This document shows, one piece after another, positions 59 through 64,000 of a stretch of DNA of 64,000 nt. Each line of letters opens with the position of its first letter. Position 1 is the first letter of the stretch. This DNA comes from Mobula hypostoma (Eukaryota), in assembly GCF_963921235.1 (NCBI RefSeq), contig NC_086097.1, positions 27,158,001 to 27,222,000 on the forward strand. Reading direction: 5' to 3'. Position numbers and translations under genes: made by a program. A model generated the notes under the pieces. That model saw only the letters and a list, made by a program, of their open reading frames with translations. It searched no databases and had not been told where the DNA came from.

Positions 59-337
59 CTGTAATACACAACCACCATGTTTAACTATTTATTGATGAGC
101 AAGTCTAATATACAAGTCCTGAATACAACAAGCAGTCCTGATGAACGGTTTTGGCAAAACACTGCCTGTTTATTCCCCTACGTAGATTCTGCCTGACATG
201 CAGAATTCCTCCAGTATTTTGTGTATTCCATAGCCTTGTGCGTTCCCTCACCCATCAGCAGATCTCTGCACTAGCCTATTTCTCTGAATTGATAAAATCT
301 CCAGTGTGCACCACTGTATCATTAGCAACCATGCCTC

Positions 338-815: not shown

Positions 816-3264
816 TATCTATCTGGACTCATAATTTTGGAATTCCCTTTCTATAACTCTTTCCAGGATGCTCCTTAAAAGAACTAGATAATCTTACAGG
901 AGTCAATGTTGAATCTAATTTGATTCTGCTGTTAAATTCCGTGGGGAATTTTACAGTATTAAAGGCTCGAGTTACTGGGCAGTCACTGTGGTGTCTATTA
1001 CAGATTTTCTGTCAGCATGGTCATTTACTGGGGTAAAGGTCACAGGGATGGATGGGGGAGATGGGGAGGGAGGTTTGGCAGCAGTTATACTGAATGCACA
1101 GGCTCCATGAAAGGAAATATACCGATTCAAAGTTAACACGATAACATGGATCAAATTGTCAGTCGAGAAAAAGATAAAGATCTAAAGATTAGATTTACTT
1201 GTCCACCAAAACACACAGTGAAATGCACTGATGACGTCAATGACCTATACAGTCAAGGCTGGACTGGGGGCAGCCTGCAAGTATCGCGAAGCTTCTGGTG
1301 CCAACACAGAATGCTCACAACTTACTAACCCTAATCTGTATGTCTTTGGGGCGCGAGAGTTAACAGAGCACCCATGCGGTCACAGGGAGAATGTACAAAC
1401 TCCTTACACACGGTGGTGGAATTGAAGCACAGGACTCGATACACAATGTTAAGCTAGCTGCTATGCTGCTGGAAAAGCCTATTTTTCAATAAATCACTGA
1501 ATTCTACAGTGCAGGAGACTGCTCAATTTAACATGTCTGTTCCAGCTTTGGCCTTGAAAGATTAACAAATTTGTCTAACACCTCCTCTTTTTTTCATTAC
1601 ACCAATTCTTCCCTTTGAAGAATGTATCCACGTCCATTTTAACAGTAATCTATAAATTATCTTCCACCACCCATTCCATAAATACATTCCAGTTAATCAG
1701 TAGTCATTCTCCTTGAAGTAATGAAGGTTTCAAAGATCTAATAGAGGTGTTCAATATTGTAGTCTGAGAAGCAAAAGTCATACATTGAGAGCGATGGGTA
1801 ATAGATGAAGAGGTGGGATGTGGGTGAGAGAACATGGGGGAAAATATTTTGTTGTACACAGACAGTGGTTTTGATCTGGATCATCACCTGTTACTGAAAC
1901 ATTAAGTCAATCTCTTTCACGAAAAGGAACTGGAAGCAGAATAATTTGTAGAAATGCAGACATGGATTCAATGGGCCAAGTGACCACCTCTTATGCCACA
2001 ATGATTTACGCTACGTTCTGAAATTCTCCACATAATCCTTCATTTTCATAAACAGGTACTCCCTGCTTATCAATGGAAATTGCTTCTCTTTAGTCACTAG
2101 AGAGCAATCTCAGCTTCTTCACTCCAGAAAAAGTTGGCAGAAAGTGGCAGATACAGTCCAGTGCATCACAGAGAGGAGGAGAAACTTACTTAGCCAGAGA
2201 ATGGTGAAACTGTGCAATTCATTGACATGGCTGGCTATGGAGGCCAGGGCATTGGGTATATTTAAGGCAGAGGTCAACAGGCTCTTGATTAGCCAGGGCA
2301 TGACGGGTTATGGAGAAAAGACAGGAGATTAGAGCTGAGAGGGAACTGGATCAGCCATGATGAAATGGCAGAGCAGACTCAATGGGCCAAACGGCCTAAT
2401 TCTGCTCCTATATCGAATGGTCTTATGGTCAGGCAAACCCCTCCCATCATTGAGCACAATTTCATGGCGCAGTGCCAAAGGAAAGCAACATTCATCATGA
2501 AAGCCCCCACCATCCACTCCATAACCTCTTCTCACTACTACCATCAGGCAGGAGGTACAGAAGCCTTAAGTCCCATACCACCAGGCTCAAGAAAAATTAT
2601 TACTGCACAAATATTAATCTCCTGAATCCGCACGGATAACTTAATTCACCACTACTCCAAACTGATTCTACGACCTACAGACTTACTTTCAAGGACTCTT
2701 TACAACACGTGTTCTCAGTAACGCAGACAAACTGCTGGAGGAACTCAACAGGTCAGAGTGCTACCTGATCTGCCAAATTCCTTCAGCATTTTGTGTCTGT
2801 TACTCTGGATTTCCAGCATCTGCAGAATCTCTTGCATTAACAATGGTCTTGGCATTCATTTCTTTATTTGCACTTTGATTGTTTGTCAGTCTTTATGTAT
2901 AGTTTTTTTAAACAAATGTTATTATATTTCTCCCCCCCCGTAAATGCCAGCAAGAAAATGAGTCTCAAGATAGCACATGGAAACACATACGTACATTGAT
3001 AATAATTTACTTTGAACTTTCGAACTCTCCACACAGATGACATCTTTCATCCTGTGTAATCATTTGGCTAAAGTTCCACGGCATCTTCCACAAAGGATTG
3101 ACTGGAATCTGGAAAGACCAACTGCTGGGCAAGTGGGCTTGTCCTTTATACATATCCAGTTTAAAGCTCTGGCCTGTTGAATGACAACATAGCTCACTGA
3201 TACAGTAAGCACAGGCTGGCCTTGAAGCAACGACTACCTCAGAGGATTCCCCAATAGAGCAATT

Positions 3265-5850: not shown

Positions 5851-6947
5851 GAGAATTTAAATGGTATGCTTAAGAAGTGAGAAATTGCACTGCCTTAAAG
5901 AATAATGGGTAGTATTTCATAGAAACATATAAAACCTACAGCACAATACAGGCCCTTCGGCCCACAAAGCTGTGCCGAGCATGTCCCTACCTTAGAAAAT
6001 ACTAGGCTTACCCATAGCCCTCTATTTTTCTAAGCTCCATGTACCTATCCAAAAGTCTCTTGAAAGACCCTATCGTATCCACCTCCACCACCATTGCCGG
6101 CAGCCCATTCTACGCACTCACCACTCTCTGCGTAAAAAAAATTTTGCAGCAGGCTTTCAGAGAAAAGATAGAAGTGAGGTAATGTGACTAACTGGAGCTG
6201 GAGTGGGCTCAATAGATAAATGGTCCCAATTGACAGTGCCGCAGCCAAATCCAAACATCAGAGAGTTCAAGGAAGAAAGATTGAAGATTAAGATTGACGA
6301 TTTGCTTTATATGTCATGTGTACACCCAAACATTGCAATTAGTGAAATGCATTGTTTGCGTCAACAACCAAAACAGTTCGAGGATGTGCTGGGCAGCCCG
6401 CAAGTGTTGCCATGCTTCTGGTGTTAAGATAGCATGCCCGGAACTCATTAACCTTCACTCTAACTCATATATTTTTGGAATATTGGAGGAAGCTGGAACA
6501 CAAGGGAAAATCCATGTGGTCATGGGGGGAATGTACAAATTGAACATACAACTAGCACTGTAAAACATAACATTAACCGCTATGCTACCATGCTACCCGA
6601 ACTAGATGGATATTTGGCAGAGAAAGCAATTGAGGTATGCAACAGAAAGTATGGCAAGTGGCAATTTTCAACAACATAAAGAGAGCCTGTAGATGCTGGA
6701 AATCCAGGGTGACGCACACAAAATGCTGGAGGAACTCAGCAGGTCAAGCAGCATCTATGGATGTTTCAGGACAAGATCCTACATCAGGGTAATTATCAGC
6801 TTCCAGTTCCATTCAAATGTTCTCTGCCAGTACAGTGCCATGCTCCCATTCAAAACACCTATTCCAAACGGCGCATCACACTCAATGTCATAAGTCAATC
6901 ACAAGGGAAGTATCAACGAGTCTTACAGCTTCTCTCATTACTAGTAC

Positions 6948-8177: not shown

Positions 8178-8789
8178 CTGAAAATGCAGTTAGATAAGGA
8201 ATCATTAACCACCTGCTAACTGCTAGTCAATCACTAGTTAAAGCCACGCTATCATTGTTGTCCAGTCCTGGCTTCTTCAAAGCCTTGCAACGTCCCCTCC
8301 CTTTCTTGGTCAAGATTAGAGGCAACATCATAGTGCAGGAATAGAGGGGGGTAAGAGGGGATCCAGAATGGGGAGTGTTCTTCCCTCTTTTTTGAATCTC
8401 TCTTTTCCCTTTCCCCATTCTGGCTCTCCTCTTACCCCTTTCTCTTCTCATCTGCCTATCATCTCACTCTGGTGCCCCTCATCCTTCTCTCCCTCCCATG
8501 GTCCACTCCTATCAGATTCCTTTTTCTTCACCTTTTCCACCCATCACCTCCCAGCTTCTAACTTCATCCCCCATTCCCCACCTTGTCCATCACTAAATTC
8601 ACCTATCACACACCAGCTTGTACTCCTTCCCCTCTCCCCAACTTCCTTTTTTAGCTTCTTCCCCATTCCTTTTCAGTCCTGATAAAGGGTCTTGGCCCAA
8701 AATGTCCGCTCTTTATTCCTCTCCATGCATGCTGCCTCACCTGCTGAGTTCCTCTAGCATTTTGTGTAGTCACAGAGGTAGCCAGATAC

Positions 8790-16290: not shown

Positions 16291-18049
16291 TTCTATGAAT
16301 TCTGTAATTTAAAACAATTCTGCATTTTTTTGTGAAAAAACTGTAGATCCCTCTCTCTCACTGAAGAATGAAGATGCCTGCATTCAATCAGTCTCTCCCT
16401 CCCTCTCACTCATAGCTGCCAGAGGACGGTGCCAGAGTCCTGGGTCTTGGAAAGGCTTAGTTATTTATTGAGATACAGTGCGGTATAGACCTTTCTGGCC
16501 CTTCGAACCGCACCACACAGCAATTCCCCGGTTTAATCCTAGCCTAATCACAGGACAATTTACAATGATTAATTAACCTACCAACTGGCACATCGTTGCA
16601 CTGTGGGAGGAAACTGGAGCACCCGGAGGAAAGCCACACGGCGACGGGGAGAACACACAAACCCCTATTGACGTGGTTTGTGGACCAGACTTTGTGGTTC
16701 ATGTTATGATGCGTTTCTGGTGGCTCCTTTTTTTTGTTGCTATCTTATGCAATTTTGATCAGTGCACACTGGCTCTGCAGCCTACAGTCAACAACATTGA
16801 ACTAAAATGAGCTGAAACTGAACGTTCCTCGACTGTTTTGTTGATCTTCTGGTTTGATGTTCTATACTCTTGTGTTTTTTGCTCTTTTTTTTGCCCCTTT
16901 ATGCAATTTGTTCTTCTTTTGTGCGTTGGGGGTCTGATGTTTTTCTTTGATGGTTTCTTTGTTTCGTGGCTGTCAGTGGGAAGTCAAATCTCAAGGTTGT
17001 ATGCTGCATACATACTTTGAATCTTGAATCTTTGAATCCCTTATGTCTCCTCTCATCAATTTTAAGAAACCATCAAACATTTTGACAGAGGAAGATAAGA
17101 TAGACAAGGAAAGGGGAAGTCCTGGAGTAAAGGAGAAGGGAGAATGGATTCATGAAGGCACGAAGGATGCAGAAGAATCTGGAACAACCAACAATCTGCT
17201 TGAGGAACTCAGCAGGCCATCAGCATCTATGGGGTGGTGGAATGGGAGGAATTGTCAACAGTTTGGGTCGAAAAACTGCATCAAAACCCTCAAGTTCTGC
17301 TCGGGGTGTTACCTGCACCAAGCTCAAAGTTCAAAAGTTGAAGGTAGATTTATTATCAAAGTATACTACCTACCCTATACAACCCTGAGATTCACTGCTG
17401 ACACCCACAGGAGAACAAAGAAATACAACAGAATTCATTAAAAAAAAGACCAATAAACATCCCATGTCCAAAATGATGCAAGTAATTAAAAGGAGCAAGT
17501 AATACAGTGAATATCAGCTGCAGAATCAGTTCAACGTTGAGGTGAGCGAAGCCGAACCAGGAACCCAAAAGCTGCAGGGCAACAACTGCTGCAAAACATG
17601 GTCGCGTGGGATTCAACTCATAGTAGCGAGAAGAGAGGGAGATGGGTCAAACGCAGGCAGACAGGATGGGTTTGGATGAGGGATCTAGGCTGGCACAGAG
17701 TAGTGGGGTTTTCCCCACGGTGACCCCGCAGAGGTCAAAGTGCACAGTCTCACCTCATCTGTAGGCTCTTAGCCTGACCTCTCTGTGGCTCCTTGCCAGC
17801 ACTGATCCACCCGTCCCAGACTGAGCAATGGTGGATAGGATTCACCTATTATCAGTGAGAATCCCAAATGTCTAGGGATCTTGCTGAAATATCGGAGCAC
17901 TGCTCAGGAGTGTGACTTGAGTTCCCACTGTGCCTAGGCTTTGTCAGATGGTCTTCATGGCCATTATTGCTGGCAAACATTTAGGGAGACCCTCCTAAGG
18001 TTCACAGTCATTTAGCTTAATCTCATCGAGATCCGTAGGTCCCAAATAG

Positions 18050-20509: not shown

Positions 20510-21305
20510 GTTTACTGCAACAACATCACTATATAAACAGGCTGCTTTCATTATGAAACAACTACCACATTAAACCTCTCCATTCGCACCACAGTAGCAT
20601 AGAGATTAGCCCAAGAGATTCACAGCTCGGGAATTTGGAGCTTGGAGTTCAACTCCAATGTTGTCTGTAAAACATCTGTACATCCTTCGTATGAGTGTGT
20701 GGGTTTCCTCTGCTCCAGTTTCTTCCCACAGTCGAAAGCAGGTTAATTGCTCATTGTAAATAGTCCTGTAATTAAGCTAGTGGATAATTGGTGGGTTACT
20801 GGGCAATGCAGCTCATAAGAACAGAAGGGGCCGTTCCACACTGTATCTCTAAATAAAAATAAATACATTCAGACTAAAGACCAGGTAACTCTTCAAAGAG
20901 AGTAAATGAAGAAAATCTGTCAAAGATAAAAGAGTCAGTATCCACAGTGTTAAGCTGGCTAGTGAAGACAATTTGTGGCTTGGATCTCAAAACTCATTCA
21001 TTTTACAAAAGAACAAACAAAATGTTGCAGGAACCCAGCTGGTCAGGCAGCACCCATGGAGAGATATGAACAGTCGATGTTTTGGGCAGAGTCCTGATGA
21101 AGAGCCTCAAGCCAAAACATCAGCTGCTCATTCCTCTCCGTAAATGCTTCCTGACCTGCTGAGTTCCTCCAACATTTTCTGTTTGTTCCTCTGGATTTCC
21201 ACCTTCTGCAAAATCTCTTGGGTTTGGGTTTATTTTACAGACTATGGTCATCAACAGCAAGATTGGCATTTTATTACCCATTGATTTCTAGGATGTAGTG
21301 GGTAT

Positions 21306-22700
21306 ATGATTGTGGACTTCAGGCAGGGCAAGACAAGGGAACACGAACCAATCCTCATGGAGGGACCAGAAGTGGAGAGAGTGAGCAATTTCCTGGGTGT
21401 CAATATATCTGATGATATAACCTGGTCCCAACGTATCAATGCAGTTATAAAGAAGATATGCCAGTGGCTATTTTTCATTAGGAGTTTGAGGAGATTTGGT
21501 TCGTCACCTAAAACACCTGAAAATGTCTACAGATGTACCGTGGAGAGCATTCTGACAGGCTGCATCAGTCTGGTATGAAGGGGCTACTGCACAGAATCAA
21601 AAGAAGCTATTAATCACCCCCCATCACCCAGGGCATGCCCTCTTCTCATTGTTACTATCAGGAAGGAGGTACGGAAGCCTGACAACACACACTCTGCGAT
21701 TCAGGAACAGCTTTTTCCCCTCTGCCATCCAATTCCTAAATGGACATTGACCCCATGAACATTACCTCACTTTTTTTGTATATATATAAAATTTCTGTTT
21801 TGCTCTATTTTAAATTTAAATATTTAATATACATATTTTTCTTTCTATATTATCATGCATTGCATTGTACTGCTGCCGCTAACAAATTTCACAATGTATG
21901 CTGGTGATATTAGACCTGATTCTGATTCTGCTGGAAATCTCATGCAACACACAGAAACTGCTGGAGGGACTCAACAAGTTAGACGGCATCCTTTCCAGTC
22001 CTGACGAAGGGTCTTGGCCCAGAATATCAACTGTTTATTCCCCTCCATAGACGTCACCAGTTTTGCTGAGTTCCTCCAGCATCTCCTGTGCCATTCACAA
22101 CTTTTTCCCTTCCGCAAATACCACTGAGATCCTCCAGAGGAATGCTGCTGCGGAAAGGCACACTCCTTCACCTCAGACGGATGAAGAAGTTTGGTATGGG
22201 CCCCCAAATCCTAAGAACGTTCTACAGGGGCATAATTGAGAGCATCCTGACTGACTGCATCACTACCTGGTCTGGGAACTGTACCTCCATCAATCGCAGG
22301 ACTCTGCAGAGAGTGGTGCCGACAGACCAGCGCGTCTGTAGATGTGAACTTCCCACTATTCAGAACATTTACAAAGACAGGTGTGTAAAAAGGGCCCGAA
22401 GGATCACTGGGGACCTGAGTTACCCCAACCACAAACTGTTCCAGCTGCTGCCATCTGGGAAATGGTATCGCAGCATAAAAGCCAGGACCAACAGGCTCCG
22501 GGACAGCTTCTTCCACCAGGCCATCAGACTGATTAATTCATGCTGACACAACTGTATTTTTATGTTATATTGAGTATCCTGTTGTACATAATATCTATTA
22601 TAAATGACTATAAATTGCACATTGCACATTTAGACAGAGACATAACATAAAAATTTTTACTCCTCATGTATATGAAGGATGTAAGTAATAAAGTCAATTC
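21306..22700 (+). mobile_element. Two Rex1/Babar-like 3' fragments separated by a Penelope-like repeat
   Basis: ORFs 21306-21578 and 22088-22546 (FYRGIIESILTDCITTW...LFQLLPSGK...DSFFHQAIRLIN). Confidence 0.8.
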
Positions 22701-22825
22701 AATTCCATTCTGCAGACCCGAGAGACTGCTGATGCTGAAATCAGCAGCAAAGCACAAAATGCTGGGGGATTCCAGATGGACAGGCAGCACCAGTGGACAG
22801 TTGACATTTTGGGTTGAGACCAGGT

Positions 22826-28620: not shown

Positions 28621-29068
28621 AAATAAGTTCATAGCCATGAATCTACGAAAATATTATGTTTCACGTTGCAGCTATATAAAACCTTGCTTAGACTGCAATT
28701 ATTCTATTGTGTGCAATTCTGGTTACTTCATTTCAACAAGGATGTAGAGGCTTTGGAGAGGGTGCAGCAGAGGTTCATCAGGATGTAGCCTGGATTGGAG
28801 GGTCTGAGATATGAGAGGTTGGTGAATGTGCATTGTTGTATCTGGAGTGTCAGGGGCCGAAGGAACACCTGACCGGAGTTTATTAGCACAAAAGATTCTG
28901 CAGATTCAAAAGATTGTGCAACACACACAAAATGCATCTATAGAACTGAATAAGCAGTCAACATTTCAGACCAAGAAGGGTCTCAGACCGAAACGTCAAC
29001 TATTTGTTCCCCTCCATAGAAGTCTTTAAGATTATGAGTCTTCTCCCAGGATAGAAATGTCAAATACT

Positions 29069-34806: not shown

Positions 34807-34807
<1 letters not shown>

Positions 34808-37492: not shown

Positions 37493-37666
37493 ATGCTGAG
37501 AATATGAGTTGTGGTGTCATTGAAAGTGAGTCTATAGATTGTGGAATCAGTTCAGTGTTGAGGTGAGTACAATCTTAGCCTACATTATACTAGAGCTACT
37601 GAAGATAAAAGGGCTCACGAGAGACTAAAAAATCTTGAGATGCTGGAGGAACTCAACATCTATGGA

Positions 37667-37702
37667 TACCCTGATGAGGGGTCTCAGTCCGAAATGTTGA
37701 CT
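37667..37702 (+). ncRNA. Minimal hammerhead ribozyme motif (core intact, stem I 5' strand lost)
   Basis: CTGATGA (37671-37677)-GGGG-TCTCAG-TCC-GAAA (37691-37694)-TG-TT-GACT. Confidence 0.55.
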
Positions 37703-38364
37703 ATCTATTCTCATCCATAGATGCTGCCTGAACTGCTGAGCTCATCCAGCACATTGTGTGTGTGTTGATCTATGGAGGGGAGTGACATTTTGGGCCGTGG
37801 CCAACATCAGGACGCAGGGAGATAAAAAGGACTGCAGATGATGGGAGTCTGAAGTAAAACACTCAACAGGTAAGATAACATCAATGAAATAGAAAACAGA
37901 GCTAACATTACAGATCCAATGAAGGGTCTTGGACAAAAAGTCAACTGCTTATTCCTCTCCATAGATGCAGCCTGACCTGCTGAGTTCCTCCTGCATTTTG
38001 TGTGTGTTGCTCTGGATTTCCAGCATTTGCAGAATCTCTTGCATTCTTGTTAACATTACAGCTATGAGAAACCAGATAGAGAGAGAAAAAGCAAGTTGGT
38101 TTTAAATTGCTGAGAAGATGGGGGAGGGATGGGTAGATGAAAGGAAATGCCACTGATAGGGTGAGAGCAAATAAGATAATGTGGCAGTCAGAAGCACACT
38201 ACGTGTCTTTAATCTGCATTTAATGGTGTTTAATAGCAGGGCTGTGGGACATTCCCAGCAAGACAGGCAGTACTAATAGGGAGAAAAACTGAGCCAAAGT
38301 CACAGCTGGATAACCAACAGAAATGGCCAATTCTGATGCAGGTAAAAAGAATGAACAATTTATT

Positions 38365-38900
38365 TAAACACAAAAGATTCTGCAGATATTGGAATTCTTG
38401 AGCAACACACACAAACAAGATGATGACGGATCTCAGCAGTATAGACAGGCCATACGGAAAGGAATGTTTTGGGCTAAGTCCCTTCATCGGGAATACAAAA
38501 CAAAGGGGTAGAGCCCAGAGTAAGAAAGTGAGGGGAGGATGAGGACTACAAGCTGGCAGGTGATAAGTGAGACCAGGTGAGGGGGAAGGTGTGTGTGGGG
38601 GATGGCAGGTGAGGGGGGGATTGAAGTAAGAAGCTGGCAGGTAATGTGAGACCAGGTGAGGGGGAAGGTGTGTGTGGGGGAGGGCAGGTGAGGGGGGGAT
38701 TGAAGTAAGAAGCTGGGAGGTGATAGGTGGAAGAGGCAAACAGCTGAAGGAGGAGGAATCTGATAAGAGAGCAGAGTGGCCCATGGGAGAAAGAGAAGGA
38801 GGTGATAAGCAGATAAGGTGAGATGAGTACCAGAATGGGGTATGGAAAAAGAGAGAAGGGGGTGGTGGAGAAATTACCAAAAGTTAGAGAAATCAGTATT
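38365..38900 (-). mobile_element. Penelope-like element 3' end: ORF stop remnant, pyrimidine-rich UTR, decayed hammerhead, terminal repeat
   Basis: Minus strand 38874-38900 reads NTDFSNFW*, followed by a pyrimidine-rich tract and CCGATGAAGGGACTTAGCCCAAAACAT. Related copies at ~8400-8770 (+), 49500-49790 (+), 55757-55950 (-). Confidence 0.7.
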
Positions 38901-43801: not shown

Positions 43802-43949
43802 GACACCTAGTCCTGTGGTGTTTATACCCCCATCATACATCCCTCCTGAATGATTAGTAGGTGTGTTGGTGATAGTACTTTTTCTTTCAGGCTACTGTTG
43901 TGACTTCTTACAACAGTTCTTTATTTCTTATTTCAGCATAAGAAATATA

Positions 43950-44010: not shown

Positions 44011-47000
44011 CGAAATAGTCTGCTCCTGCTCCTGTTTCTTAGGATCTTCTGTTTTTATGGCAATCTGCTCCACCCTTCAATGTGATACTACCCTGATCAT
44101 ATATTCTCCTCAGTGTCCAAACAGCTATTGATCCTAATCTTGAATATTAATATTAAGCATCCACGGCTCTCTGCCACAGAAGATTACAGAAATTGCACTC
44201 TGAATAGAAAATTCTCTTCCATTTATTCTTAAATATCCAATCAGAGTCAGAATCAGGTTTATTATCACTGACGTATTTTGTGCAATTTTGTTGTTTTGTG
44301 GCAGCTATACTGTGCAAGCCATAAACATTATAATGCAAAAGAAGAACAGGGTTCATGGGTTCATGGACCGTTCAGAAATCTGATGGCAGAGAGGAAGAAG
44401 CTGTTCCTAAAACACTGAGTGTGAGTATTCAGACTCCTGTACCCTTTCCCTGATGGTAGTAACGAGAACAGGGCATGTCCCAGCTGCTGAGGGTCCTTAA
44501 TGATGGATGCTGCCTTCTTGAGGGATCATCTTTTGAAAACGTTCTCGATGGTGGGGAGGGTTGTGCCTGTGATGGAGCTGGCTGAATCTACAACCTCTGT
44601 TTTAGATCCTTCACTCTGACAAAATAGTTAGGCCAATTCCAGTCCAAATCTTGTGTGCCTCTTTATTTTTAACTTCAGTTTACTTCCTCTTCTTGAGAAT
44701 CTGGACTGCAGGTACTTGAAGGTGAGTATCTCAGTCCTGTTGTCTGGAGGTGCAGCTGTCTTGCTGCTCCAGTGATCCGGGTTCGATCCAGACCTCGGGT
44801 GCTGCCAGTGCAGCTTTGTGTGTTTCCGGGTTTGATCCGGGTTCAATCCAGACCTCGGGCGCTGCCAGTGCAGCTTTGTGTATTTCCCCTGTGACCACAT
44901 GGGTGTCTTTCAGCTGTCCTAATTTCCCCCCACATCCTGAAAACATGCAGCTAGCCACAGTAGATTGCCATTAACGTGTAAACGTATAGTAGAAACTCGA
45001 TGGATGAGGTGAATATGTGGAGAATAAACCGGGACTGGTCTAGGATAGGGCGAAGGGTAGTACAGCGATTAACATGACAGTATCACAGCTCAGGGCATTC
45101 TAGATAGTTCAGAGTTCAATTCCTGCAATGTTCTGTCGGGAGTCTCTGTGCATCCTCCCTGTGAAATACATGTTCTCCGGTTTCCACCCACAGTCCAAAG
45201 ATGTGCTGGGTAAGTTAATCGATCACTTTAAATTGTCCCATGATTAGGTTAGGGTTAATCGGGGTTGTGGGATTGCTGGGGCAGTGTGGCTCGAAAGGCC
45301 AGAAGGGCCTAGTCCATGCTGTATTGCTAAATAAATAAATGGTAACTTTGCCAACACTGCGCACATCCTGAGAATAAATACAGAGAGCAATCTAGAGAGT
45401 CTCCACAAAGAACTACAGAGTCATAGGACGCTATAGCACAGAAACAGGTCCTTTGGCTCATTTAATCCATAACAAATATTATTCTGCCTGCACCTGGACC
45501 ATGGTCCTCCTTACCTCTCCCATCTATGTATTTATCCAAACATCTCTTAAATGTTACAATCAAATCCACATCCGCCACTTCCACTGGCAGCCCGTTCCAC
45601 ACTCTCACCGCCCTTTGAGTGAATCTCACCCAACCTCAGTAGAAAAAGCCTGATTGCATTTGATGCTCATGTGCCTATTTACACCCCTCATAGGGTAAAT
45701 ACAATCGGGTAGGGTTAATGCATTACGTATACACATAATGAAGATGTCTCTGATGCCCTACAAAGGGCAAGAGAGAGGACAAGAAGGTAAGATGCTTTGT
45801 AGTGTGGGATAGCTTGAAGTTATCCATGCTGTGCTTTTGCATATCTAATCCCGAACAAAGGCAAACTCAGCACTCAGCTTTCAAATTACTTGCTGAACCT
45901 GCACGTACACTTTTGATGTCAAGCCAAACACCAGCTGCGTCTCCTACCATTTAAAAAATATACTGTCTTACCAAAGTGGATAACATGCTTTCCCATGTCT
46001 GTCTTATTTCCTACAAACACCCTCTGTACACTCATTATTTGTAGATCACTATAGCCAGCATGGTGTGTGGGTACTTGAATCAAAAGCACCTTCGAATACA
46101 CTCTAAAATGGCTCAACAAACATGAACGCAAGAGGTTCTGCAGGTGCTGGAAATCCAAACTAACACAAGCAAAATGCTGGAGGAACTCAGCAAGTCAGGC
46201 AGCATCAATGGAGAGGTATAAACAGTTGACATTTGGGGCCAAGACCCTTCATCAATAAGGATAGAGAGGAACTGTCAATGTTTCGAATTGAATCCCCACA
46301 CCGTTTTGATCCAGGGTCCTGAGCCAAAATGTTAACAGTCCGTCCACCCTGCCACAGATGTTGCAGACCTGCCTGTCTTCCTCCAGTAGGTTGTTTATTG
46401 TTTCAGATTCCAGCACCTGTAGGCTCTTGCAACTCCATGAACAAGAATAGTGTAGATTATCTAAGTTTAATGAGCAGCAAAAAGACCTTTGGGCCTCACT
46501 GAGACTTATCAAATAACAAAAAGCCTAAATAGAGGGGATGTGGAGAGGATGCTTCCAATAGTGGGGGAGTCTAGCACCAGAGAGCACAGCCTCACAATAG
46601 AGGGATATATCTTTAGAACAGAGATGAGAGGAATTTCTTTAGCCAGAGGGTGGGTGAATCTGTGGAATTCATTACCACAGGTGGCTATGGAGGCCAAGTC
46701 ATTGGGTATATTTAAAGCGGAGGTTGATAGGTTATTGATTAGTAAGAGTGTCAAATGTTATGGGAAGAATGGCGAGGGATAATAAATCAGAGACGCTGAA
46801 AAGGCAGAGCAGATTTAATGGACCAAATAGTGTAATTCTGCTCCTATGTCTTATAGTGTTATAGCCTAATACTTATAAGACCATAAGACATAGGTACAGA
46901 AATAGGCCACTCAGCCCATCGAGTCTGTTCCACCATTCGATCATGGCTGATTATGGTCCCCATCAAATCTATTCTCCTGCCATCTCCCATAACCTTTGAC

Positions 47001-49380: not shown

Positions 49381-49655
49381 ACATAAAGTATATGTCACCA
49401 TATACAACCCCGAGTTTCATTTTCTTGTGGGCATACTCAATAAATCCATAATAATCTACAGGAGATGTTGCCTCAACAATAGGCTTCTATCAAGCCTCTG
49501 GTACCTTCCTCCTTCTCTTTCCTCCATGGTCTACTCTTCTCTCCTATATGATCCTCACCCAGCTTCCCCCTCGCCTAGTTTCACCTATCACCTGCCAGCA
49601 TGTACTCCTTCCTGTCCCCCAACCTTTTATTCTGGGTTCTTCCCTTTTCCTTTCC

Positions 49656-49691
49656 AGTCCTGATGAAAGGTCTCGGCCTGAAATGTCAACC
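49656..49691 (+). ncRNA. Minimal type-I hammerhead ribozyme motif (core intact, stem I decayed)
   Basis: AGTC-CTGATGA-A-AGG-TCTCGG-CCT-GAAA-TG-TC-AACC; predicted cleavage after 49687. Confidence 0.65.
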
Positions 49692-50564
49692 ATTTATTCC
49701 CTTCCATAGATGCTGCCTGACCTGCTGAGTTCCTCCAGCATTTTGTGCGTGTTGCTCTGGATTTCCACCATCTACAGAATCTCTTGCGTGTCTATTGTCA
49801 AGGACCCCTCCCCCATCCAGGTCATGCCGTCTTCTCACTGCTACCGTCAAGCAGGAAGCAGAGGAGCCTACAGTCCCAACCGCCATGTTTAGGAAGAGCT
49901 ACTTTCCTTCAGTCATCAGGTTCTGATCCTGATGACACAACTCTAACCCTACCTCAGCAATGGAACAGTGCAGTTGCTTGCACTAACATGGACTTCGGCT
50001 GTGTCTTTATTTCTGGTCTTGTTTACACACTGTTTTTTCACTATCTTGCATAAATTTCATGTATAATTTATGTCTGTGCCTACCTGCCTGTGATGCTGCA
50101 GCAAGCAAGCTTTGCATTGTACTCCACCTCACTGTACTTGTGCACATGGTTAAACTTGAGTTTGACTTGACTTGAGATTCTGGTGTCTTCTGAATCCTTC
50201 CACCTTTATCAGCCTTGCCTTCAGCTACCTAGGTCCCACGTGCTGGGGTTCTCTTAAACCTCTCAAGCCTAACTCTCTTCCCCCAGTTCCATCTCTCTTC
50301 CCTCAGTTTTCCTCTCTCTCCCTCCATCCCTTATGACGTCCCTGTGAACAGTTTTTGATGACATTCCTGTGAACAGTGCCACGATTGTACAGATAAGAAA
50401 CTGTCCTATTTACCAGCTACTACCATAGGATTCCCAGGAGCTTGGAAAGTTGGTATTGAAAGGAGGCATAAGTCACTATTTTATCCAGTGAATGTCTTTT
50501 TGAGCAAACCTTATAAGCCACGAAGGATACAAACTCTCCCCATCTCCTCATCATCTCCCCAGAG

Positions 50565-53349: not shown

Positions 53350-53955
53350 GTCATAGTCATAGTCATACTTTATTGATCCCGGGGGAAATTGGTTTTCGTT
53401 ACAGTTGCACCATAAATAATTAAACAGTAATAAAACCATAAATAGTTAAATAGTAGTATGTAAATTATGCCAGGAAATAAGTCCAGGACCAGCCTATTGG
53501 CTCAGGGTGTCTGACCCTCCAAGCGAGGAGTTGTAAAGTTTGATGGCCACAGGCAGGAATGACATCCTATGACGCTCTGCGTTGCATCTTGGTGGAATGA
53601 GTCTCTGGCTGAATGTACTCCTGTGCCCACCCAGTACATTATGTAGTGACACACATAAAAGTTGCTGGTGAACGCAGCAGGCCAGGCAGCATCTCTAGGA
53701 AGAGGTGCAGTCGACGTTTCAGGCCGAGACCCTTCGTCCTGACCTCTTCCTAGAGATGCTGCCTGGCCTGCTGCGTTCACCAGCAACTTTTATGTGTGTT
53801 GCTTGAATTTCCAGCATCTGCAGAATTCCTGTTGTTTGCATTATGTAGTGGATGGGAGACATTGTCCAAGATGGCATGCAACTTAGACAGCATCCTCTTT
53901 TCAGACACCACCGTGCGAGAGTCCAGTTCCATCCCCACAACATCACTGGCCTAAC
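53350..53955 (-). mobile_element. Rex/Babar-like 3' fragment hosting a Penelope-derived insertion
   Basis: (TATGAC)n tail; homologous to 25233-25694; interrupted at 53649-53838. Confidence 0.8.
53649..53838. mobile_element. Young Penelope-like fold-back insertion with partial hammerhead ribozyme
   Basis: Perfect 58-bp inverted arms 53649-53706 / 53742-53799, a 39-nt 3' extension, and a 12-bp TSD cattatgtagtg. Confidence 0.85.
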
Positions 53956-56900
53956 GAACAAGCTGGTCACTAACCTCAGAAGGGGGGGCGGGGTGATGCA
54001 CGTGCTCCTGTCTACAAAAAGAGTTGAGGTTGGGAGGGTTGAGCGCTTCAAGTTCCTAGGAGTGAAATAACATCACTGTCCAACCACATTGATATCATAG
54101 CTGAGATAGCTCACAGCCACCTGTACTTCCTCAGGAAGCTGAGGAAATTTGTCATGTCCCTGTCGACTCTCAATAATTTTTATCCATGTACCATAGAAGG
54201 AATTCTGTTTTGATACGTAACAGCTTGGTTTGGCAACTGCTCTGTACATGACTGCAAAAAAGTACAGAGAGTTGTGTACAAAGCTCAGCACATTACAGGA
54301 ACTTGCCTTTCCTCAGTGGATTCTGTCTACGCTTTTCGCTGCCTTGGTAAAGCAGCCAGCATAACTAAAGAGGCCATCAACTTTGGGCATTCTTTCTTCC
54401 TCTGTCTCCCATCAAGCAGAATATACAGAAGTCTGAAAGCACAAACCACCAGGTTCAGAGGCAGCTTCAACTCACTATTGTCAGGTTACTGGAAGAGTAA
54501 CCATTATGGGATGAATATTAAATGGTGGCCTTGTCATTCAGGCTCATGTGAATTCAAAAATTGCAATTTTAGGTATTAATATTTTACAATATTTAACAAG
54601 ATTAGGTAACATCTCAATTACATTGTGATATTTTTATTTATTATAATTACTGACTTAATGTTTAATATTTATAGAAGGGATTGAAAGGATTTAAATGATT
54701 TTGTTGATTGCCTTTGCCGCAGTATTTTGATGTGTTGTTCAAGATTTCAGCAAATGTGTGTCTTCCACCTTTTCATCCTGAAGATGGGAGACATGTCAGA
54801 AGGATCAACTGCAATACAGGGGAAAAAATGCCTTTATTTAAATGGTTAGTTCCTAGATGCAAATCATTCTGTTGGATTCAGTTGTCGTATCTCAGGGGGT
54901 TTGAAGGAAAAGCCAATTCCTGCCGAGCAGCCTACTTGTTATGGAATCATTAGTCAGCTGCGATTGTGGCCACAGTGAAGTCTAGACATTTGAAAGTTGT
55001 GGGAGGTGGCAGTAGTGGGAGGATGCAACAAGGGAGATGACACATGAGCATTCGGAAAGAAAAAGCACAAAAGATTCATCGACATGATATGGTTATGCCA
55101 TTTCCAAACTGAGTAAAGATTAGCTTTATTTGTCACATGCACATCAAAACATACAGTGAAATGTGACAACCAACACAGTCCAAGGATGTGCTGGGGGCAG
55201 CCCGCAAGTACTGTCCTGCTGCCAGCACTAACATAGCATGTTCACAACTCACTAACCCTAACCCTAACCCTTCAGTCTTTGGAATGTGGGAGGAAATCCA
55301 CGTGCCCACAGGGAGAACGTACTAGTTCCTTATAGAGAGTGAGTGGCAGGAATGGAACCCTGCGATCTCTAGTCCCGTAAAGTGACTGTGCTGACTGCTA
55401 CACCACCAGGCCACCTATTATGGACAATGATCACAATCAGATCGACAAAAAGCATCAATCAGTATCTACCCCACTCTGACCTGCATGCACAGTTTGAACT
55501 CACAAGGGAGAAGGGAGCGACAAACAGTGTACTGGAGGAACGCATCAAGTCAAGCAGCATTTTGGGAGGAAAGGAGCTGTTGGCGTTTTAGTCTGAGACC
55601 CCCTATCAGGACTGAGAGTGGAGAGGGGAAATGGCTGGTGTAAAGGTGGGGAAAATGGTGAAGAGAAATGAAAGATGACAGACAGGTAGGTGGGTGAGAC
55701 AGTGGCAGGAGGACGAAAGATGATATATAGCAGGAGAAGGGAGATGCTAAGCAACAAACACAAAATGGTGGAGGAACTCAGCAGGTCGGGCAGTATCTGT
55801 GGATAGAAATAAAACAGTCAATGCTTTGGGCCAAGACCCTACATCAGGAATGGAAAGGATGACAGGAGAAGAAAGTGGGGGGAGGAGAAAGGAGTACAGT
55901 CTGGAAGGTGATAGGTGAAACCAGGTGAGGGGAAAGGTGGGAGAAAGACGTCAGTCAATTGAATGCAGGTACCTGGGATCCACTGTACGTCCAAACTGGG
56001 AGGCCTGGAAAAGGAGCTGGAAGCCATGTGGAGCAAGATGGCAGCAGAGACAAGGTTCCCAGAAAGGACACATGGCTGTACTAATGAGTGTGGGTGAGTA
56101 CATGGTTGAAGAGTCAGAGACCACAGAGGGGGTGACAGTAGGAGAGAGTCTCACTGAGCTCTGATCGAAGAGAAGGTTGAAACTTACTCAGGGTGGGCAT
56201 ACCTCAAAAAGACTTTGCAGTGGAGTACAGTTACATGCTCTTGTGAAAAGGGAGTCATGCCCCAAGACCCCTGTCTGCTGCCTCCTTGACCCCAGCTCCC
56301 ACAGGCTGTAGACTTGACACTTAATAATTTTCACTGTGAAGGCAATCAGTTAAACAAACAGTTTCTGTTACCATCTCTCAGAGAAACTAGGGCTTGGCAA
56401 TAAACGAGGCCTTGAACAAATAGAAAATAGGTTTGTATGTGCTTACGGAAAAACCGTGATGTCATTATTAATGCAGAGTCCTTATCAACAACAAGCTTCT
56501 TTAAACATAGTAATGTGCCCCAAGGCACTTGGCAAGTGGCAGGTAAGAGCACATTTCAAATGGAAATTCAGAAAAGGATTATAGAAATGGACAAAAATAT
56601 AATTGCAGACCTCAGTTTTCTGAGGGGAGTGTTAAACAATGTGAGGGATGTAACAAGGGAGAGGGGCCGAAGAAGAGACATTAATATAAACATGATAGTT
56701 ACAAATCTCAGAGGGCATAAAGTATTTTGCAATCTATTATGATTGAAATCTGACACAACACAGCTCAGCCCCAGAAAGAAATGGATGACGATGATGATGT
56801 GATGTCGGTTGACAATAAACGATGGCACTAATTGCTGCGGAGAATTTCCCTGAATAACAACAGGGGATCCTTTATGTTCACCTGAGAACGCAGGCTAAGT

Positions 56901-62680: not shown

Positions 62681-64000
62681 GTGAGTAGTTTATATCTCTG
62701 GAGTTTGGCTGGGCTTGTATGCAAGCAGAAATATCACACTTTTGTGGCATTCTGTTTGCTGTATGTGTGAAGTTAATGATTATAAGTGATATATCAAACA
62801 CAATTGTGATTAGGGATCTAGGATTTGGACTCTTGATTGTTAACCTTCATTTTCCACCAAAGTACACATGGCCAGGCAAAAAAAACTGTCTAACCTTGTA
62901 ACTAGTCTTTTTCAGTATGACTACATGGCTGTTTGCGATACATTGATACTGGATTTGCTTAGAACTAACATATAGTAGAGCTAGTCTGAGAACTAACAAA
63001 TCGAATTGCTTGTATGAATATCTAGATTTTTAGCATATTGAGCCTATGAAGTTTTAATGTCTTGAGGAATACTGGGATGGAATTAAAGCTTTTTAAACAA
63101 AATTTGGGCTAAGGTAGCCATATTAGAATTGAAATTGAGTGTGGACTGGTGTGGAATGTAAATGTGGTGCAATAGATGTTCTAGTGTTTAGAGACCTTGT
63201 ACCCATGCCCACTATAGCATGTGCAGGAAGTCTATTCTGGATTATGCTTCAAGTTTTGTTGTCTCTAATGGAGTTTACATATTGCCTGGGACTAGTAATT
63301 TGAAGCTACCTGTAAGCATCATTATTCGATTTGGTTTAGATGTGTATCACAAATTGCTCTGTAATTTTGGTTTTAATATATATGTAAGCGGTGTTTAAGC
63401 CATCCAAGTGCATATGTCAACTTTCTCCCCATGATGTGGCCATCTTGCTTCAGCCTGACATGCTGTTCCAGCATTTTGTGTGCTTTTGGATTTCCAGCAT
63501 GTAGAATTTCTAGTGTTTGTGATTTGCTTCAGTAAAGGGGTTAATCTAGGTCCATCGATGCACTCAGTTGATGTAGTGTATGATGCATGACAATGGGTTC
63601 TGACAGCACTGACCAGATAGTTCCAGAAAGTTCAGAGGCAGTCAAATAATTTGCTCAGGTTAAGGTCAGTCATACTTCTCATGAAAAGGTCCATGGGATG
63701 TCCTGTTGGGTTGTTGCAAAAAAAAAACAACCTTGCTGCATTTGTGTATTCATTATATTGGCTGCAAAGTAGTTGCCAAAGGCAAGTTTGCAGAATTATT
63801 GATTTGTTCTGTTGCAAAGATATTTTTCTTTGAATTAAATCAATGTAGCCTACATTATTTCTGTTTCAAATGTGGATCTTAAAAAAGAAAGTCCATGTAT
63901 CCATTTAAAGCATCCTTGCATTTGGACAAGTTTGAGTGATTAGTAATTTTAGTAAAAGGTGAGAAAGGGAAGTGATGTTTGAGTGGTTTGAATTTGCTGA

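What the first reader, a model, noticed from the sequence alone, without database searches (positions are those of the whole stretch)
49500..49790. Window-wide family of short Penelope-like repeats carrying a minimal hammerhead ribozyme
Seen: about 20 copies of one repeat (e.g. ~134, 6682, 8400, 21011, 21930, 28885, 37640, 37915, 38365, 46125, 49500, 53649, 55520, 55757), many retaining part of one motif. Aligning them by eye reconstructs AGUC-CUGA(U/C)GA-A-GGG-UCUCGG-CCC-GAAA-CG-UC-GACU. That gives a hammerhead core, a 3-bp stem II, a one-base-pair stem III inside the palindrome ACGU, a GUC cleavage triplet and stem I AGUC/GACU. The copy here keeps CUGAUGA, stem II AGG/CCU and GAAA..GUC. Established: minimal type-I hammerheads with palindromic stem III occur in Penelope-like element terminal repeats and are thought to cleave as dimers; an extra nucleotide after A9 is tolerated in some natural hammerheads. 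Inference: this genome carries a very high-copy, ORF-less, ribozyme-bearing non-autonomous retroelement (about one per 3 kb here), a retrozyme/SINE-like system parasitising Penelope that standard annotation would miss.
Basis: partly seen in the sequence, partly recalled or inferred. Interest (0 to 1): 0.8.

Follow-up and report, generated by a model that had tools for sequence, protein, structure and literature searches.

The report
Penelope retroelement tails with dead hammerheads
The repeats are worn-out tail-end fragments of an ordinary, very abundant Penelope-like jumping gene that carries the small hammerhead RNA motif already described for such elements, not a separate gene-less parasite.

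Summary
Its by-eye hammerhead reconstruction matches a 31-nt motif found 50,271 times exactly in this 3.48-Gb genome.

The repeat is not an ORF-less retrozyme or SINE. It is the 3' end (3'UTR, minimal hammerhead, 'tail') of an autonomous Penelope-like element (PLE) of about 3.5 kb. That element has an RT plus GIY-YIG ORF, with recurring 935-aa open frames, and a pseudo-LTR carrying the hammerhead on both sides.

Copies share their 3' end and differ in their 5' end, which is 5' truncation. Many lie head to head with the 30-nt tail on one arm only. One such pair in the window (53649-53838) is a single insertion with a 12-bp target duplication, shown by an uninterrupted sister site at 25404-25415.

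None of the 13 window copies that reach the hammerhead is intact. No regular tandem arrays and no discrete 5' end were found. All these traits are published PLE traits (Cervera & de la Peña 2014; Craig 2021; Frangieh 2024). Cleavage was not tested, and covariation is not significant. Earlier notes of this scan report the same kind in other shark-like genomes.

The parts
49495..49791 (+). The copy named in the finding. It is a 297-nt, 5'-truncated 3' end of an old PLE subfamily and lies entirely within the 3'UTR/pseudo-LTR. It reaches the long ('tail') 3' end.
   Evidence: It is 78-88% identical to genome copies, some of which (L003/L009) continue upstream into ORF remnants.
49655..49692 (+). 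Decayed minimal hammerhead of that copy. Helix I 5' strand CAGTC 49655-49659; core CTGATGA 49660-49666; unpaired A 49667; helix II AGGT/GCCT 49668-49671 and 49676-49679 with loop CTCG; GAAA 49680-49683; TG (was CG) 49684-49685; TC 49686-49687, with the predicted cut after 49687; helix I 3' strand AACCA 49688-49692.
   Evidence: Core boxes are kept, helix I pairs 2 of 5, and 15.2/16.2 is no longer Watson-Crick.
53649..53738 (-). Arm 1 of a young head-to-head pair. It matches reference positions 2619-2708 (hammerhead from GA.. to the short 3' end, no tail) at 95.6% identity to the young subfamily.
53743..53838 (+). Arm 2 of the same pair. It matches reference positions 2652-2740 (downstream of the hammerhead to the tail end) at 89.6% identity.
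53637..53648 (+). Left copy of the 12-bp target-site duplication CATTATGTAGTG of the pair.
   Evidence: The sister copy of the host repeat at 25330-25697 is uninterrupted and has this 12-mer once (25404-25415).
53839..53850 (+). Right copy of the 12-bp target-site duplication.
8397..8767 (+). Longest window copy (371 nt), 3'UTR to 3' end. The hammerhead core is broken (CTGATAA, CCCAAAA).
133..226 (+). 5'-truncated copy with an indel in the hammerhead.
2717..2756 (-). Inverted arm of a head-to-head pair. It ends 43 nt short of the reference 3' end (no tail).
2759..2844 (+). Forward arm of that pair, reaching the 3' end. It starts downstream of the hammerhead.
6663..6761 (-). Short 3'-end fragment starting downstream of the hammerhead.
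17191..17232 (-). Short 3'-end fragment.
21013..21094 (-). Inverted arm of a head-to-head pair.
21090..21225 (+). Forward arm of that pair, hammerhead to 3' end, core broken.
21917..21990 (-). Inverted arm of a head-to-head pair.
21989..22090 (+). Forward arm of that pair, with a hammerhead that has lost its GAAA box (CTGACGA .. CCCAGAATATC).
22720..22821 (-). Diverged 3'-end fragment.
28886..28969 (-). Inverted arm (query positions about 303 to 199). It meets the forward arm near the helix II loop.
28975..29020 (+). Forward arm of that pair, partial hammerhead with an indel.
37640..37666 (-). Short inverted arm directly upstream of the next copy.
37670..37771 (+). Copy from hammerhead to 3' end. 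Core boxes are kept (37665-37706) but helix I pairs only 1 of 5.
37768..37813 (-). Weak inverted fragments between the two forward copies (E 0.12 and 0.47). They indicate that this is not a head-to-tail dimer.
37919..38041 (+). Copy from hammerhead to 3' end, with an indel in the hammerhead.
38363..38900 (-). Two adjoining pieces (38363-38587 and 38677-38900) of an old copy with internal short repeats in the 3'UTR part. The hammerhead is partly deleted.
46125..46255 (-). Copy from hammerhead to 3' end, core broken, with a short inverted piece upstream.
55532..55630 (-). Diverged copy with a broken hammerhead.
55750..55938 (-). 189-nt copy, 3'UTR to 3' end, core broken.
63453..63517 (+). Short 3'-end fragment.

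Best explanation
The window is littered with dead, 5'-truncated 3' ends of an autonomous, endonuclease-bearing Penelope-like retroelement (PLE).

Shown here, anatomy of the full element:
- It is about 3.5 kb, arranged as pseudo-LTR - ORF (RT then C-terminal GIY-YIG nuclease) - pseudo-LTR.
- Each pseudo-LTR carries a minimal type-I hammerhead about 300 nt after the stop codon and about 65-95 nt before the insertion's 3' end.
- Insertions end at one of two sites about 30 nt apart (the 'tail').
- Insertions are truncated at variable 5' points.
- Insertions are often made of two truncated copies lying head to head, with the tail on one arm only.
- At least one such pair is a single insertion flanked by a 12-bp target duplication.

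Inferred, mechanism:
- The nuclease makes a staggered double-strand cut.
- Each 3'-OH primes reverse transcription that starts internally on the element RNA, at one of the two tail sites.
- The reverse transcriptase usually stops within a few hundred nucleotides.
- The two cDNAs are joined in the middle.

The hammerhead belongs to the element's RNA. As published for such motifs, it would fold only as a dimer through the palindrome ACGU and cut after GUC, trimming unit RNAs out of multi-unit transcripts. Cleavage was not tested here. The genomic copies give no sign that cut RNA is the usual template.
For: Link to a PLE:
- Window-type copies extend upstream to 763 bp and then to over 1.4 kb in other loci.
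- A 201-aa frame from one of them finds 150 scored genome matches (70,007 first-look candidates), including long open frames.
- Near-full copies L033/L034 (96% identical over 2,718 bp) encode an RT-like region (Pfam RVT_1, E 6e-3 and 8.6e-5, below cut-off). They also encode ..VIYCVRCSRCGLLYIGETRRRLGDRFAEH..VATHFN.. (Pfam GIY-YIG, 21.9 bits against a cut-off of 22.6).
- 487 database proteins match at E<=1e-10. Many carry precomputed PF00078 and some PF01541.
- Six of 66 scored copies show a 935-aa open frame. Three of these have no stop inside the match.

Pseudo-LTR: 5 of 6 full-length copies carry an upstream direct copy of 3'UTR-hammerhead-tail that runs straight into the 5' region and an ATG about 35 nt later. 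The sixth has an inverted copy instead.

Truncation:
- All 22 window fragments lie within 424 nt of the 3' end, and tblastn with the ORF finds 0 hits in the window.
- In 28 independent young loci chosen only by position, 5' ends range from reference position 1118 or further upstream to 2617, and 16 loci reach the ORF.
- Of 100 places holding the tail 30-mer, 39 have the exact hammerhead. Of the other 61, 60 were fetched: 18 extend beyond the 140 nt fetched and 42 end at positions 2551-2674.

Head-to-head pairs:
- Among the first 100 places of each motif, opposite-strand pairs closer than 1.3 kb are all -/+ (8 and 9 pairs) and never +/-.
- All 9 young pairs examined have the tail on exactly one arm.

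These traits are listed as PLE hallmarks in PMC8557442 (passages). PMC11167929 reports cleavage and extension of both strands and two internal RT start sites (main text).

Hammerhead: features match PMC4209133. Between subfamilies only the hammerhead-to-tail block (reference positions 2595-2740) stays alignable, while the rest of the 3'UTR does not. The core position N7, which is free in hammerheads, is the one that differs between copies (U, A, C).
Against: - No experiment and no RNA data: cleavage, dimer folding and transcription are all inferred.
- Covariation is not significant. 83.8% of cells pair, but 87 of 500 shuffles reach that. For the covariation score the figure is 105 of 500. Support is therefore conservation and fit to a published pattern.
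- Both Pfam scores are below the curated cut-offs.
- In most young copies position 11.1 is U, not the usual C.
- The predicted minimum-energy fold of a single motif is a plain hairpin, not the hammerhead.
- Only 1 of 60 mapped 5' ends lies at the predicted cleavage product's first base (2645), and 3 lie at 2641-2642. Cut RNA is not visibly used as template.
- No window copy is physically joined to an ORF. The link rests on homology to other loci.
- The genome samples are the first places on contig C1 or the best-scoring hits, not random draws.
- The PLE clade was not determined.
Confidence: 0.9

Rival explanations
1. First reader's reading. The short copies are a separate ORF-less, non-autonomous element (retrozyme or SINE-like) that carries its own hammerhead and is mobilised in trans by Penelope enzymes.
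For: - All 22 window fragments lack ORF sequence.
- More than half of the young copies sampled by the tail motif are under 200 nt.
- 27 of the 40 best genome hits to the window copy seemed to start at query position 73-87 or 101.
- Non-LTR retrozymes are reported to derive from PLE pseudo-LTRs (preprint 10.64898/2026.07.22.740005, abstract and Results part 1).
Against: - The position 74-87 boundary is an alignment break. About 15 of 23 such copies continue upstream in PLE 3'UTR sequence with an extra block of about 50 nt, and 6 are true truncations at scattered points.
- 5' ends are scattered.
- No tRNA, 7SL or 5S-type head was seen. The upstream part of the window copy is PLE 3'UTR.
- No head-to-tail dimers occur in the window. 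The two apparent same-strand neighbours at 37670 and 37919 are separated by weak inverted pieces.
- Same-strand pairs among 200 sampled places have irregular spacings of 61 to 2,742 nt.
Confidence: 0.05
2. Many of the 100-150-nt copies are full-length cDNAs of a short RNA that starts just upstream of the hammerhead, for example from a pseudo-LTR promoter. On this reading the hammerhead-plus-tail block behaves as a small trans-mobilised unit, although it is part of the PLE.
For: - 5' ends of young copies are densest at reference positions 2603-2624, just upstream of and into the first bases of the CUGA box. That is about 21 of 42 short copies, against 8 each in the next two 25-nt bins and 5 in the 50 nt upstream.
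- 11 of 28 loci with an exact hammerhead end at 2584-2617.
Against: - The peak is broad (over 20 nt).
- About half of these ends abut an inverted partner, so the peak may reflect how two cDNAs are joined.
- It may also reflect aligners running through the motif's own self-complementarity (monomer fold).
- No transcription start data exist.
Confidence: 0.15
3. The motif is real but does not act as a self-cleaving ribozyme in the element's life cycle. It is kept for another reason, such as protein binding, RNA structure near the RT start site, or pairing of the two cDNAs.
For: - Published tests found low or protein-dependent activity, and insertion in vitro did not need the hammerhead (PMC4209133 Results; PMC11167929 main text).
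- There is no pile-up of 5' ends at the cleavage site here.
- U at position 11.1 is common in the most abundant young variant.
Against: - All catalytic boxes, the free N7, the extra nucleotide after A9 and the palindromic 15.2/16.2 are kept in 50,271 exact copies and across subfamilies. That is the pattern expected of a working hammerhead.
- Core mutants abolished, and a compensatory double mutant partly restored, cleavage in the Anolis element (PMC11167929).
Confidence: 0.2

Closest known systems
Minimal hammerheads (min-HHR) in the pseudo-LTRs of metazoan Penelope-like elements (Cervera & de la Peña 2014, PMC4209133)
   Same: - Type-I topology.
- CUGANGA and GAAA boxes.
- An unpaired nucleotide between A9 and 10.1.
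- No real helix III but a palindromic 15.2/16.2 (ACGU).
- Short helix I (4-5 bp).
- Located in both flanking repeats.
- Thousands of mostly single motifs in truncated copies.
- Pairs on opposite strands a short distance apart.
   Different: - Helix II is short here (3-4 bp plus a tetraloop) against 7-8 bp in the Schistosoma families.
- The commonest young variant has U, not C, at 11.1.
- The copy number of one identical motif (50,271) is far above the roughly 4,000-9,000 heterogeneous motifs quoted there for coelacanth and Xenopus.
- Cartilaginous fishes are not mentioned in the text I read.
Poseidon element PAc of Anolis carolinensis (Frangieh et al. 2024, PMC11167929)
   Same: - RT + GIY-YIG ORF, pseudo-LTRs and a hammerhead near the pLTR-ORF junction.
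- Two 3' ends about 30 nt apart, as expected from two internal RT start sites.
- Genomic head-to-head pairs fit cleavage and extension of both target strands.
- The target of the one dated insertion contains ATT.
   Different: - In PAc the ORF starts inside the hammerhead and the RT start sites lie 111-118 nt into the ORF.
- Here the ATG lies about 130 nt after the hammerhead, and both 3' ends lie upstream of it.
- Nothing was tested biochemically here.
Non-LTR retrozymes of animals (Cervera & de la Peña 2020, PMC7229834, seen only as a search listing; Li et al. 2026 preprint)
   Same: A short non-coding unit with a type-I hammerhead, related to PLE pseudo-LTRs.
   Different: Retrozymes are head-to-tail tandem repeats that can release small circular RNAs. 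The copies here are dispersed single or head-to-head fragments with variable 5' ends, and they belong to an ORF-bearing element.
Canonical type-I hammerheads of animal satellites and repeats (Rfam hammerhead families)
   Same: The same catalytic core and the same GUC site.
   Different: Helix III and loop 3 are absent. No Rfam hammerhead model matches even at E<=10.

Membership tests
Endonuclease-bearing Penelope-like element (PLE) | Reverse transcriptase domain in a single long ORF | tested here: met
   - Pfam RVT_1 gives E 8.6e-5 and 6e-3, both below the curated cut-off.
- 487 relatives match at E<=1e-10, many with precomputed PF00078.
- 935-aa open frames recur.
The Pfam score alone would be inconclusive.
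Endonuclease-bearing Penelope-like element (PLE) | C-terminal GIY-YIG nuclease | tested here: met
   - Pfam GIY-YIG scores 21.9 bits against a cut-off of 22.6, E 2e-4, at residues 192-266 of the C-terminal frame.
- The motif ..LLYIGETRRRLGDRFAEH.. is visible.
- Some relatives carry PF01541.
The score is marginal.
Endonuclease-bearing Penelope-like element (PLE) | Pseudo-LTRs from partial tandem insertion | tested here: met
   5 of 6 full-length copies have an upstream direct copy of 3'UTR-hammerhead-tail that is continuous with the 5' region.
Endonuclease-bearing Penelope-like element (PLE) | Frequent 5' truncation with a shared 3' end | tested here: met
Endonuclease-bearing Penelope-like element (PLE) | Adjacent inverted 5'-truncated copy | tested here: met
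   - There are 17 -/+ and 0 +/- close pairs.
- The window holds pairs at 2717-2844, 21013-21225, 21917-22090, 28886-29020 and 53649-53838.
- A single-event insertion with a 12-bp duplication is shown.
Endonuclease-bearing Penelope-like element (PLE) | Optional 30-40 bp 'tail', often at one end only | tested here: met
   3' ends fall at reference positions 2703-2716 or 2737-2740. All 9 pairs examined have the tail on exactly one arm.
Endonuclease-bearing Penelope-like element (PLE) | Placement in a named clade (Penelope/Poseidon, Neptune, Nematis) | not tested
   No reference RT sequences were at hand, and no tree was built.
PLE minimal hammerhead (min-HHR) | Core boxes CUGANGA and GAAA, and a UH cleavage site | tested here: met
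   There are 50,271 exact genome matches. In the window only 2 of 13 copies keep them.
PLE minimal hammerhead (min-HHR) | Unpaired nucleotide between A9 and 10.1 | tested here: met
   An A is present in the majority line of 37 copies. With CCU an alternative register (A-U, G-C, G-C) needs no bulge.
PLE minimal hammerhead (min-HHR) | G10.1-C11.1 pair | tested here: inconclusive
   Across 37 copies the pair is GC in 22, GU in 11 and AU in 2. The commonest young variant has U at 11.1.
PLE minimal hammerhead (min-HHR) | Palindromic 15.2/16.2 replacing helix III (dimer use) | tested here: met
   ACGU is present in all exact genome matches. In old copies it is CG in 14, UG in 15, UA in 2 and other in 6 of 37, consistent with CpG decay.
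PLE minimal hammerhead (min-HHR) | Helices supported by compensatory changes | tested here: inconclusive
   83.8% of cells pair, against 19-39% in slid controls. Shuffles reach the observed value 87 of 500 times, and 105 of 500 for the covariation score.
PLE minimal hammerhead (min-HHR) | Self-cleavage after GUC | not testable with these tools
   No experiment was possible. No run on record as RNA was listed.
Non-LTR retrozyme | Head-to-tail tandem units, each with a hammerhead, and no ORF-bearing form of the same unit | tested here: not met
   - No contiguous direct dimers occur in the window.
- Same-strand spacings are irregular among 200 sampled places.
- The unit is the end of an ORF-bearing element.
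SINE | Discrete 5' end with a small-RNA-derived, promoter-bearing head | tested here: not met
   - 5' ends are scattered.
- The upstream part is PLE 3'UTR.
- The only tRNA-like signal in the window (29296-29358, 26.3 bits, below the cut-off of 29) lies outside any copy.
Rfam hammerhead families | Match to a curated covariance model | tested here: not met
   No hit at gathering score or at E<=10, in the window or on an intact young copy.

The most novel reading that the evidence does not exclude
The sharp rise of 5' ends at the upstream edge of the hammerhead marks a real RNA 5' end. On this reading the 100-150-nt hammerhead-plus-tail block is copied as a complete small RNA and amplified in trans. 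It would be a functional, SINE-like mini-unit nested inside the Penelope pseudo-LTR, and this genome's tens of thousands of near-identical copies would be its products. A variant of this reading is that the motif's self-complementarity is what joins the two converging cDNAs of a head-to-head insertion.
Probability: 0.12. Interest if true: 0.6.

Novelty: new member of a known kind. Interest (0 to 1): 0.25.

Why it matters
As a discovery it adds little. Minimal hammerheads in Penelope-like elements, their truncated copies, inverted partners and tails are all in print.

Its practical value is as material. This genome holds at least 50,000 identical hammerhead motifs and at least 64,000 identical tail motifs. 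It also holds full-length copies 97-100% alike and open 935-aa frames, so the family looks recently or currently active. That gives a large natural sample for two open questions about these elements:
- how both target strands are primed and the two cDNAs joined;
- whether the hammerhead cuts in vivo.

The sampled 5' ends already argue that cut RNA is rarely the template. For annotation, the finding shows that Rfam models do not see this class. It also shows that head-to-head pairs can imitate microRNA-like hairpins.

Tried and rejected
- Rfam: no hammerhead family in the window at gathering score or at E<=10, nor on an intact young copy. The sub-threshold microRNA-type hits at 8328-8459 and 53665-53783 are inverted-repeat hairpins. 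The second is the PLE pair.
- Pfam on decayed old ORF frames: no relevant family. One chance-level match (Sde2_N_Ubi_vert, E 0.014) appeared for one of 7 frames.
- Solved structures by sequence: 0 hits at E<=0.01.
- RNA evidence: no RNA holder listed. All 23 rows are contigs of unrecorded kind, so no reads were laid, because contigs cannot show RNA ends.
- Thermodynamic folding: the monomer folds as an extended hairpin and the dimer as a long duplex. The hammerhead fold is not the minimum-energy structure. My hand-written target structures were one character short and gave no energy. I draw nothing from this.
- First idea that L033 and L034 share the element's true 5' end: wrong. L034 is truncated at reference position 1 and L033 about 380 nt further upstream. 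Full-length copies go on for about 780 nt in all.
- Idea that the ORF starts at the ATG in ..CCATAGATGCTGCC..: rejected for the young subfamily, because that frame stops after 16 codons (read by eye).
- Idea of a discrete 230-nt element: rejected.
- Test for copies templated by cleaved RNA: 1 of 60 ends at position 2645.
- Earlier-findings look-up by place: nothing for this genome.
- The isolated regex match at 43803-43755 (-) is outside the family and at chance level (0.64 expected per shuffled window).
Full report
**1. What is in the window**

The stretch 49495-49791 (+) is one copy of a dispersed repeat. blastn of 49480-49800 against the window gives 24 HSPs. Eight longer natural genomic copies used as queries give 22 merged fragments totalling 2,808 nt, about one per 2.9 kb. 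Thirteen copies reach the hammerhead-like block.

An alignment of 37 natural copies (7 from the window, 30 from genome loci) has the majority line CAGTC-CTGAnGA-A-GGG-TCTCGG-CCC-GAAA-CG-TC-nACTG.

**2. The window copies are relics**

- A strict core pattern (CTGANGA .. GAAA NN TH) is met by 2 family copies, at 37665-37706 and 49654-49695. A third match at 43803-43755 lies outside the family, and 0.64 matches are expected per shuffled window.
- Scored column by column, 0 of 13 copies are complete. 4 have indels, 7 have a broken core, and the 2 with a whole core pair only 1/5 and 2/5 in helix I and have ACGT decayed to ATGT.
- Most changes are the CpG-to-TpG/CpA kind, for example ..CCCGAAACGTCGAC.. 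becoming ..CCCAAAATGTCAAC...

**3. What the repeat belongs to**

The window is G000:C1:27158001-27222000 of a 3.48-Gb genome.

*Walking upstream from window-type copies.* Other loci align over 763 bp and then over more than 1.4 kb. Their frames carry decayed RT-like and GIY-YIG-like strings. A 201-aa frame from one of them retrieves 150 scored matches out of 70,007 first-look candidates, some inside long open frames.

*Coding capacity.* Four such loci were fetched. L033 and L034 are 96% identical over 2,718 bp.
- They encode an RT-like region (Pfam RVT_1, E 6e-3 and 8.6e-5, below cut-off).
- They encode a C-terminal ..LLYIGETRRRLGDRFAEH..VATHFN.. region (Pfam GIY-YIG, 21.9 bits against a cut-off of 22.6).
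- The large protein search gives 487 relatives at E<=1e-10. Many have precomputed RVT_1 and some have GIY-YIG. The named ones are 'uncharacterized' proteins of cartilaginous fishes, cnidarians, a crinoid, a tick and a snail.
- Open frames of 935 aa recur in 6 of 66 scored copies, and 3 of these have no stop inside the match.

*Position of the hammerhead.* It lies about 300 nt after the stop codon, in the same orientation.

*The upstream pseudo-LTR.* Walking upstream from the 5' side shows that full-length copies go on for about 780 nt beyond my working reference. In 5 of 6 copies they are preceded by a direct copy of 3'UTR-hammerhead-tail that runs without a break into the 5' region, with an ATG about 35 nt later. 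The sixth copy has an inverted copy there.

This is the pseudo-LTR - ORF - pseudo-LTR layout of an endonuclease-bearing Penelope-like element, with the hammerhead in both repeats.

**4. Abundance and age**

| Query | Result |
|---|---|
| 31-nt hammerhead pattern | 25,115 + 25,156 exact matches; reversed control 0 |
| 30-nt string downstream of the hammerhead | 32,460 + 32,285 exact matches; reversed control 0 |
| 5' region queries | best 40 hits 97-100% identical |

Both motifs keep their CpGs. The young subfamily therefore looks recent, possibly active. The window holds one young insertion (53649-53838). All its other copies belong to older subfamilies 72-78% identical to the young one, and alignable with it only from the hammerhead to the tail.

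**5. Truncated ends, not a separate short element**

- All 22 window fragments lie within 424 nt of the element's 3' end. tblastn with the ORF finds nothing in the window.
- In 28 independent young loci, taken only because they are the first on contig C1 with an exact hammerhead, 5' ends run from reference position 1118 or further upstream to 2617, and 16 loci reach the ORF.
- Of the first 100 places with the tail string, 39 have the exact hammerhead. I fetched 60 of the other 61. 18 extend beyond the 140 nt fetched, and 42 end between positions 2551 and 2674.
- The seeming pile-up of starts at query position 74-87 is an alignment break. About 15 of 23 such copies continue upstream in PLE 3'UTR sequence with an extra block of about 50 nt, and 6 are true truncations.
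- There are no contiguous head-to-tail dimers in the window. Same-strand neighbours among the 200 sampled places have irregular spacings.

The retrozyme/SINE reading therefore fails its defining tests.

**6. Head-to-head pairs and the tail**

- Among the sampled places, opposite-strand pairs closer than 1.3 kb are all -/+ (8 in the hammerhead list, 9 in the tail list) and never +/-.
- In 9 of 9 young pairs one arm ends at positions 2703-2715 and the other at 2738-2740, so the 30-nt tail sits on one arm only.

The window offers a natural control. A host repeat is present twice. The copy at 25330-25697 is uninterrupted. The copy at 53356-53958 is split by the pair 53649-53838. The 12-mer CATTATGTAGTG, single at 25404-25415, stands on both sides of the pair. 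The pair is therefore one insertion event with a 12-bp target duplication.

These traits are listed as PLE hallmarks by Craig et al. 2021 (PMC8557442, passages): 5' truncation, partial tandems, an adjacent inverted truncated copy, and a 30-40 bp tail often at one end. Frangieh et al. 2024 (PMC11167929, main text) found that an Anolis PLE protein cuts and extends both strands and starts reverse transcription at two adjacent internal sites. The genomic pattern here is what that biochemistry predicts. The step from pattern to mechanism is inference.

**7. The hammerhead itself**

It fits the published minimal PLE hammerhead (Cervera & de la Peña 2014, PMC4209133, main text parts 1-2):
- an extra nucleotide after A9;
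- palindromic 15.2/16.2;
- a short helix I;
- location in the pseudo-LTRs;
- mostly single motifs in truncated copies, plus nearby pairs on opposite strands.

The free core position N7 is the one that varies between copies.

Against it:
- Compensatory change is not significant. 83.8% of cells pair, against 19-39% in slid controls, but 87 of 500 shuffles reach that value.
- Position 11.1 is U in the commonest variant.
- The minimum-energy fold is not the hammerhead.
- Rfam models do not match.
- Only 1 of 60 mapped 5' ends sits at the first base of the predicted 3' cleavage product.

The last point agrees with the report that uncut RNA is the main template in vitro.

**8. An unexplained detail**

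5' ends of short young copies are densest at positions 2603-2624, at the upstream edge of the motif and running into the first bases of the CUGA box. This could be an RNA start in the pseudo-LTR, a preferred joining point of the two cDNAs, or partly an alignment effect of the motif's self-complementarity. I could not tell which.

**9. Comparison and verdict**

This is a new example, in what is probably an elasmobranch genome, of a known kind. Earlier notes of this scan on other shark-like genomes say the same.

Not seen, and possibly relevant:
- the supplementary figures and tables of PMC4209133;
- the supplements of the 2026 preprint, which would name its one cartilaginous fish;
- curated repeat libraries.

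Noticed in passing
window 53665-53783: A sub-threshold Rfam match to a microRNA precursor model (mir-641, 45.4 bits against a gathering score of 100, E 1.4e-5). It is simply the hairpin formed by the young head-to-head PLE pair. Such pairs could be mistaken for, or evolve into, small-RNA hairpins.
   Followed up: partly
window 8328-8459: A cluster of sub-threshold plant and animal microRNA-model hits on a long hairpin that overlaps the 5' end of the PLE copy 8397-8767. It may be another inverted junction in the 3'UTR part. This was not checked.
   Followed up: no
window 25330-25697 and 53356-53958: Two inverted copies of an unidentified host repeat, 95% identical over 294 nt. One is split by the PLE pair, which gave the empty-site comparison. 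The repeat itself was not identified.
   Followed up: partly
window 2168-2430, 14833-15136, 19622-19911, 27397-27724, 46552-46862: A second abundant dispersed repeat family (repeat finder families D7, D9, D10, D11), unrelated to the PLE tail.
   Followed up: no
window 31685-31996 and 34760-34849: (AC)n microsatellites followed by the same roughly 35-nt flank (..TCTTCAACCCCAGAACAGGC..), suggesting that a repeat ends in, or targets, the microsatellite.
   Followed up: no
window 43755-43803 (-): An isolated match to the relaxed hammerhead pattern (CTGATGA .. GAAACGTT) outside the repeat family. It is at chance level (0.64 expected per shuffled window).
   Followed up: partly
window 29296-29358 (-): A tRNA-like signal just below the Rfam threshold (26.3 bits against 29), not inside a PLE copy. 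It may be the head of a SINE.
   Followed up: no
L041 1-1630 and L059 1401-3031: Two distant loci share the same composite: a copy starting near reference position 1 lies head to head with an arm truncated at exactly position 1814. This is either a duplicated locus or a rearranged form that has itself been copied.
   Followed up: no
L054 62-1631: A young copy with an internal deletion: reference positions 1-75 are joined to 1226-2740.
   Followed up: no
G000 C1, first 5.2 Mb: Several opposite-strand motif pairs lie 2.05-2.14 kb apart in both orientations, including an alternating +/-/+ series at 2442637, 2444692 and 2446823. This hints at a recurrent larger composite structure.
   Followed up: no
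L012 75-620: Upstream of an old PLE copy lies a fragment of another retroelement ORF (..LYRVLLRPHLEYCMQFWSP..). L031 holds a 756-aa open frame that fuses PLE-like and such RT sequence, so nested insertions are common.
   Followed up: no
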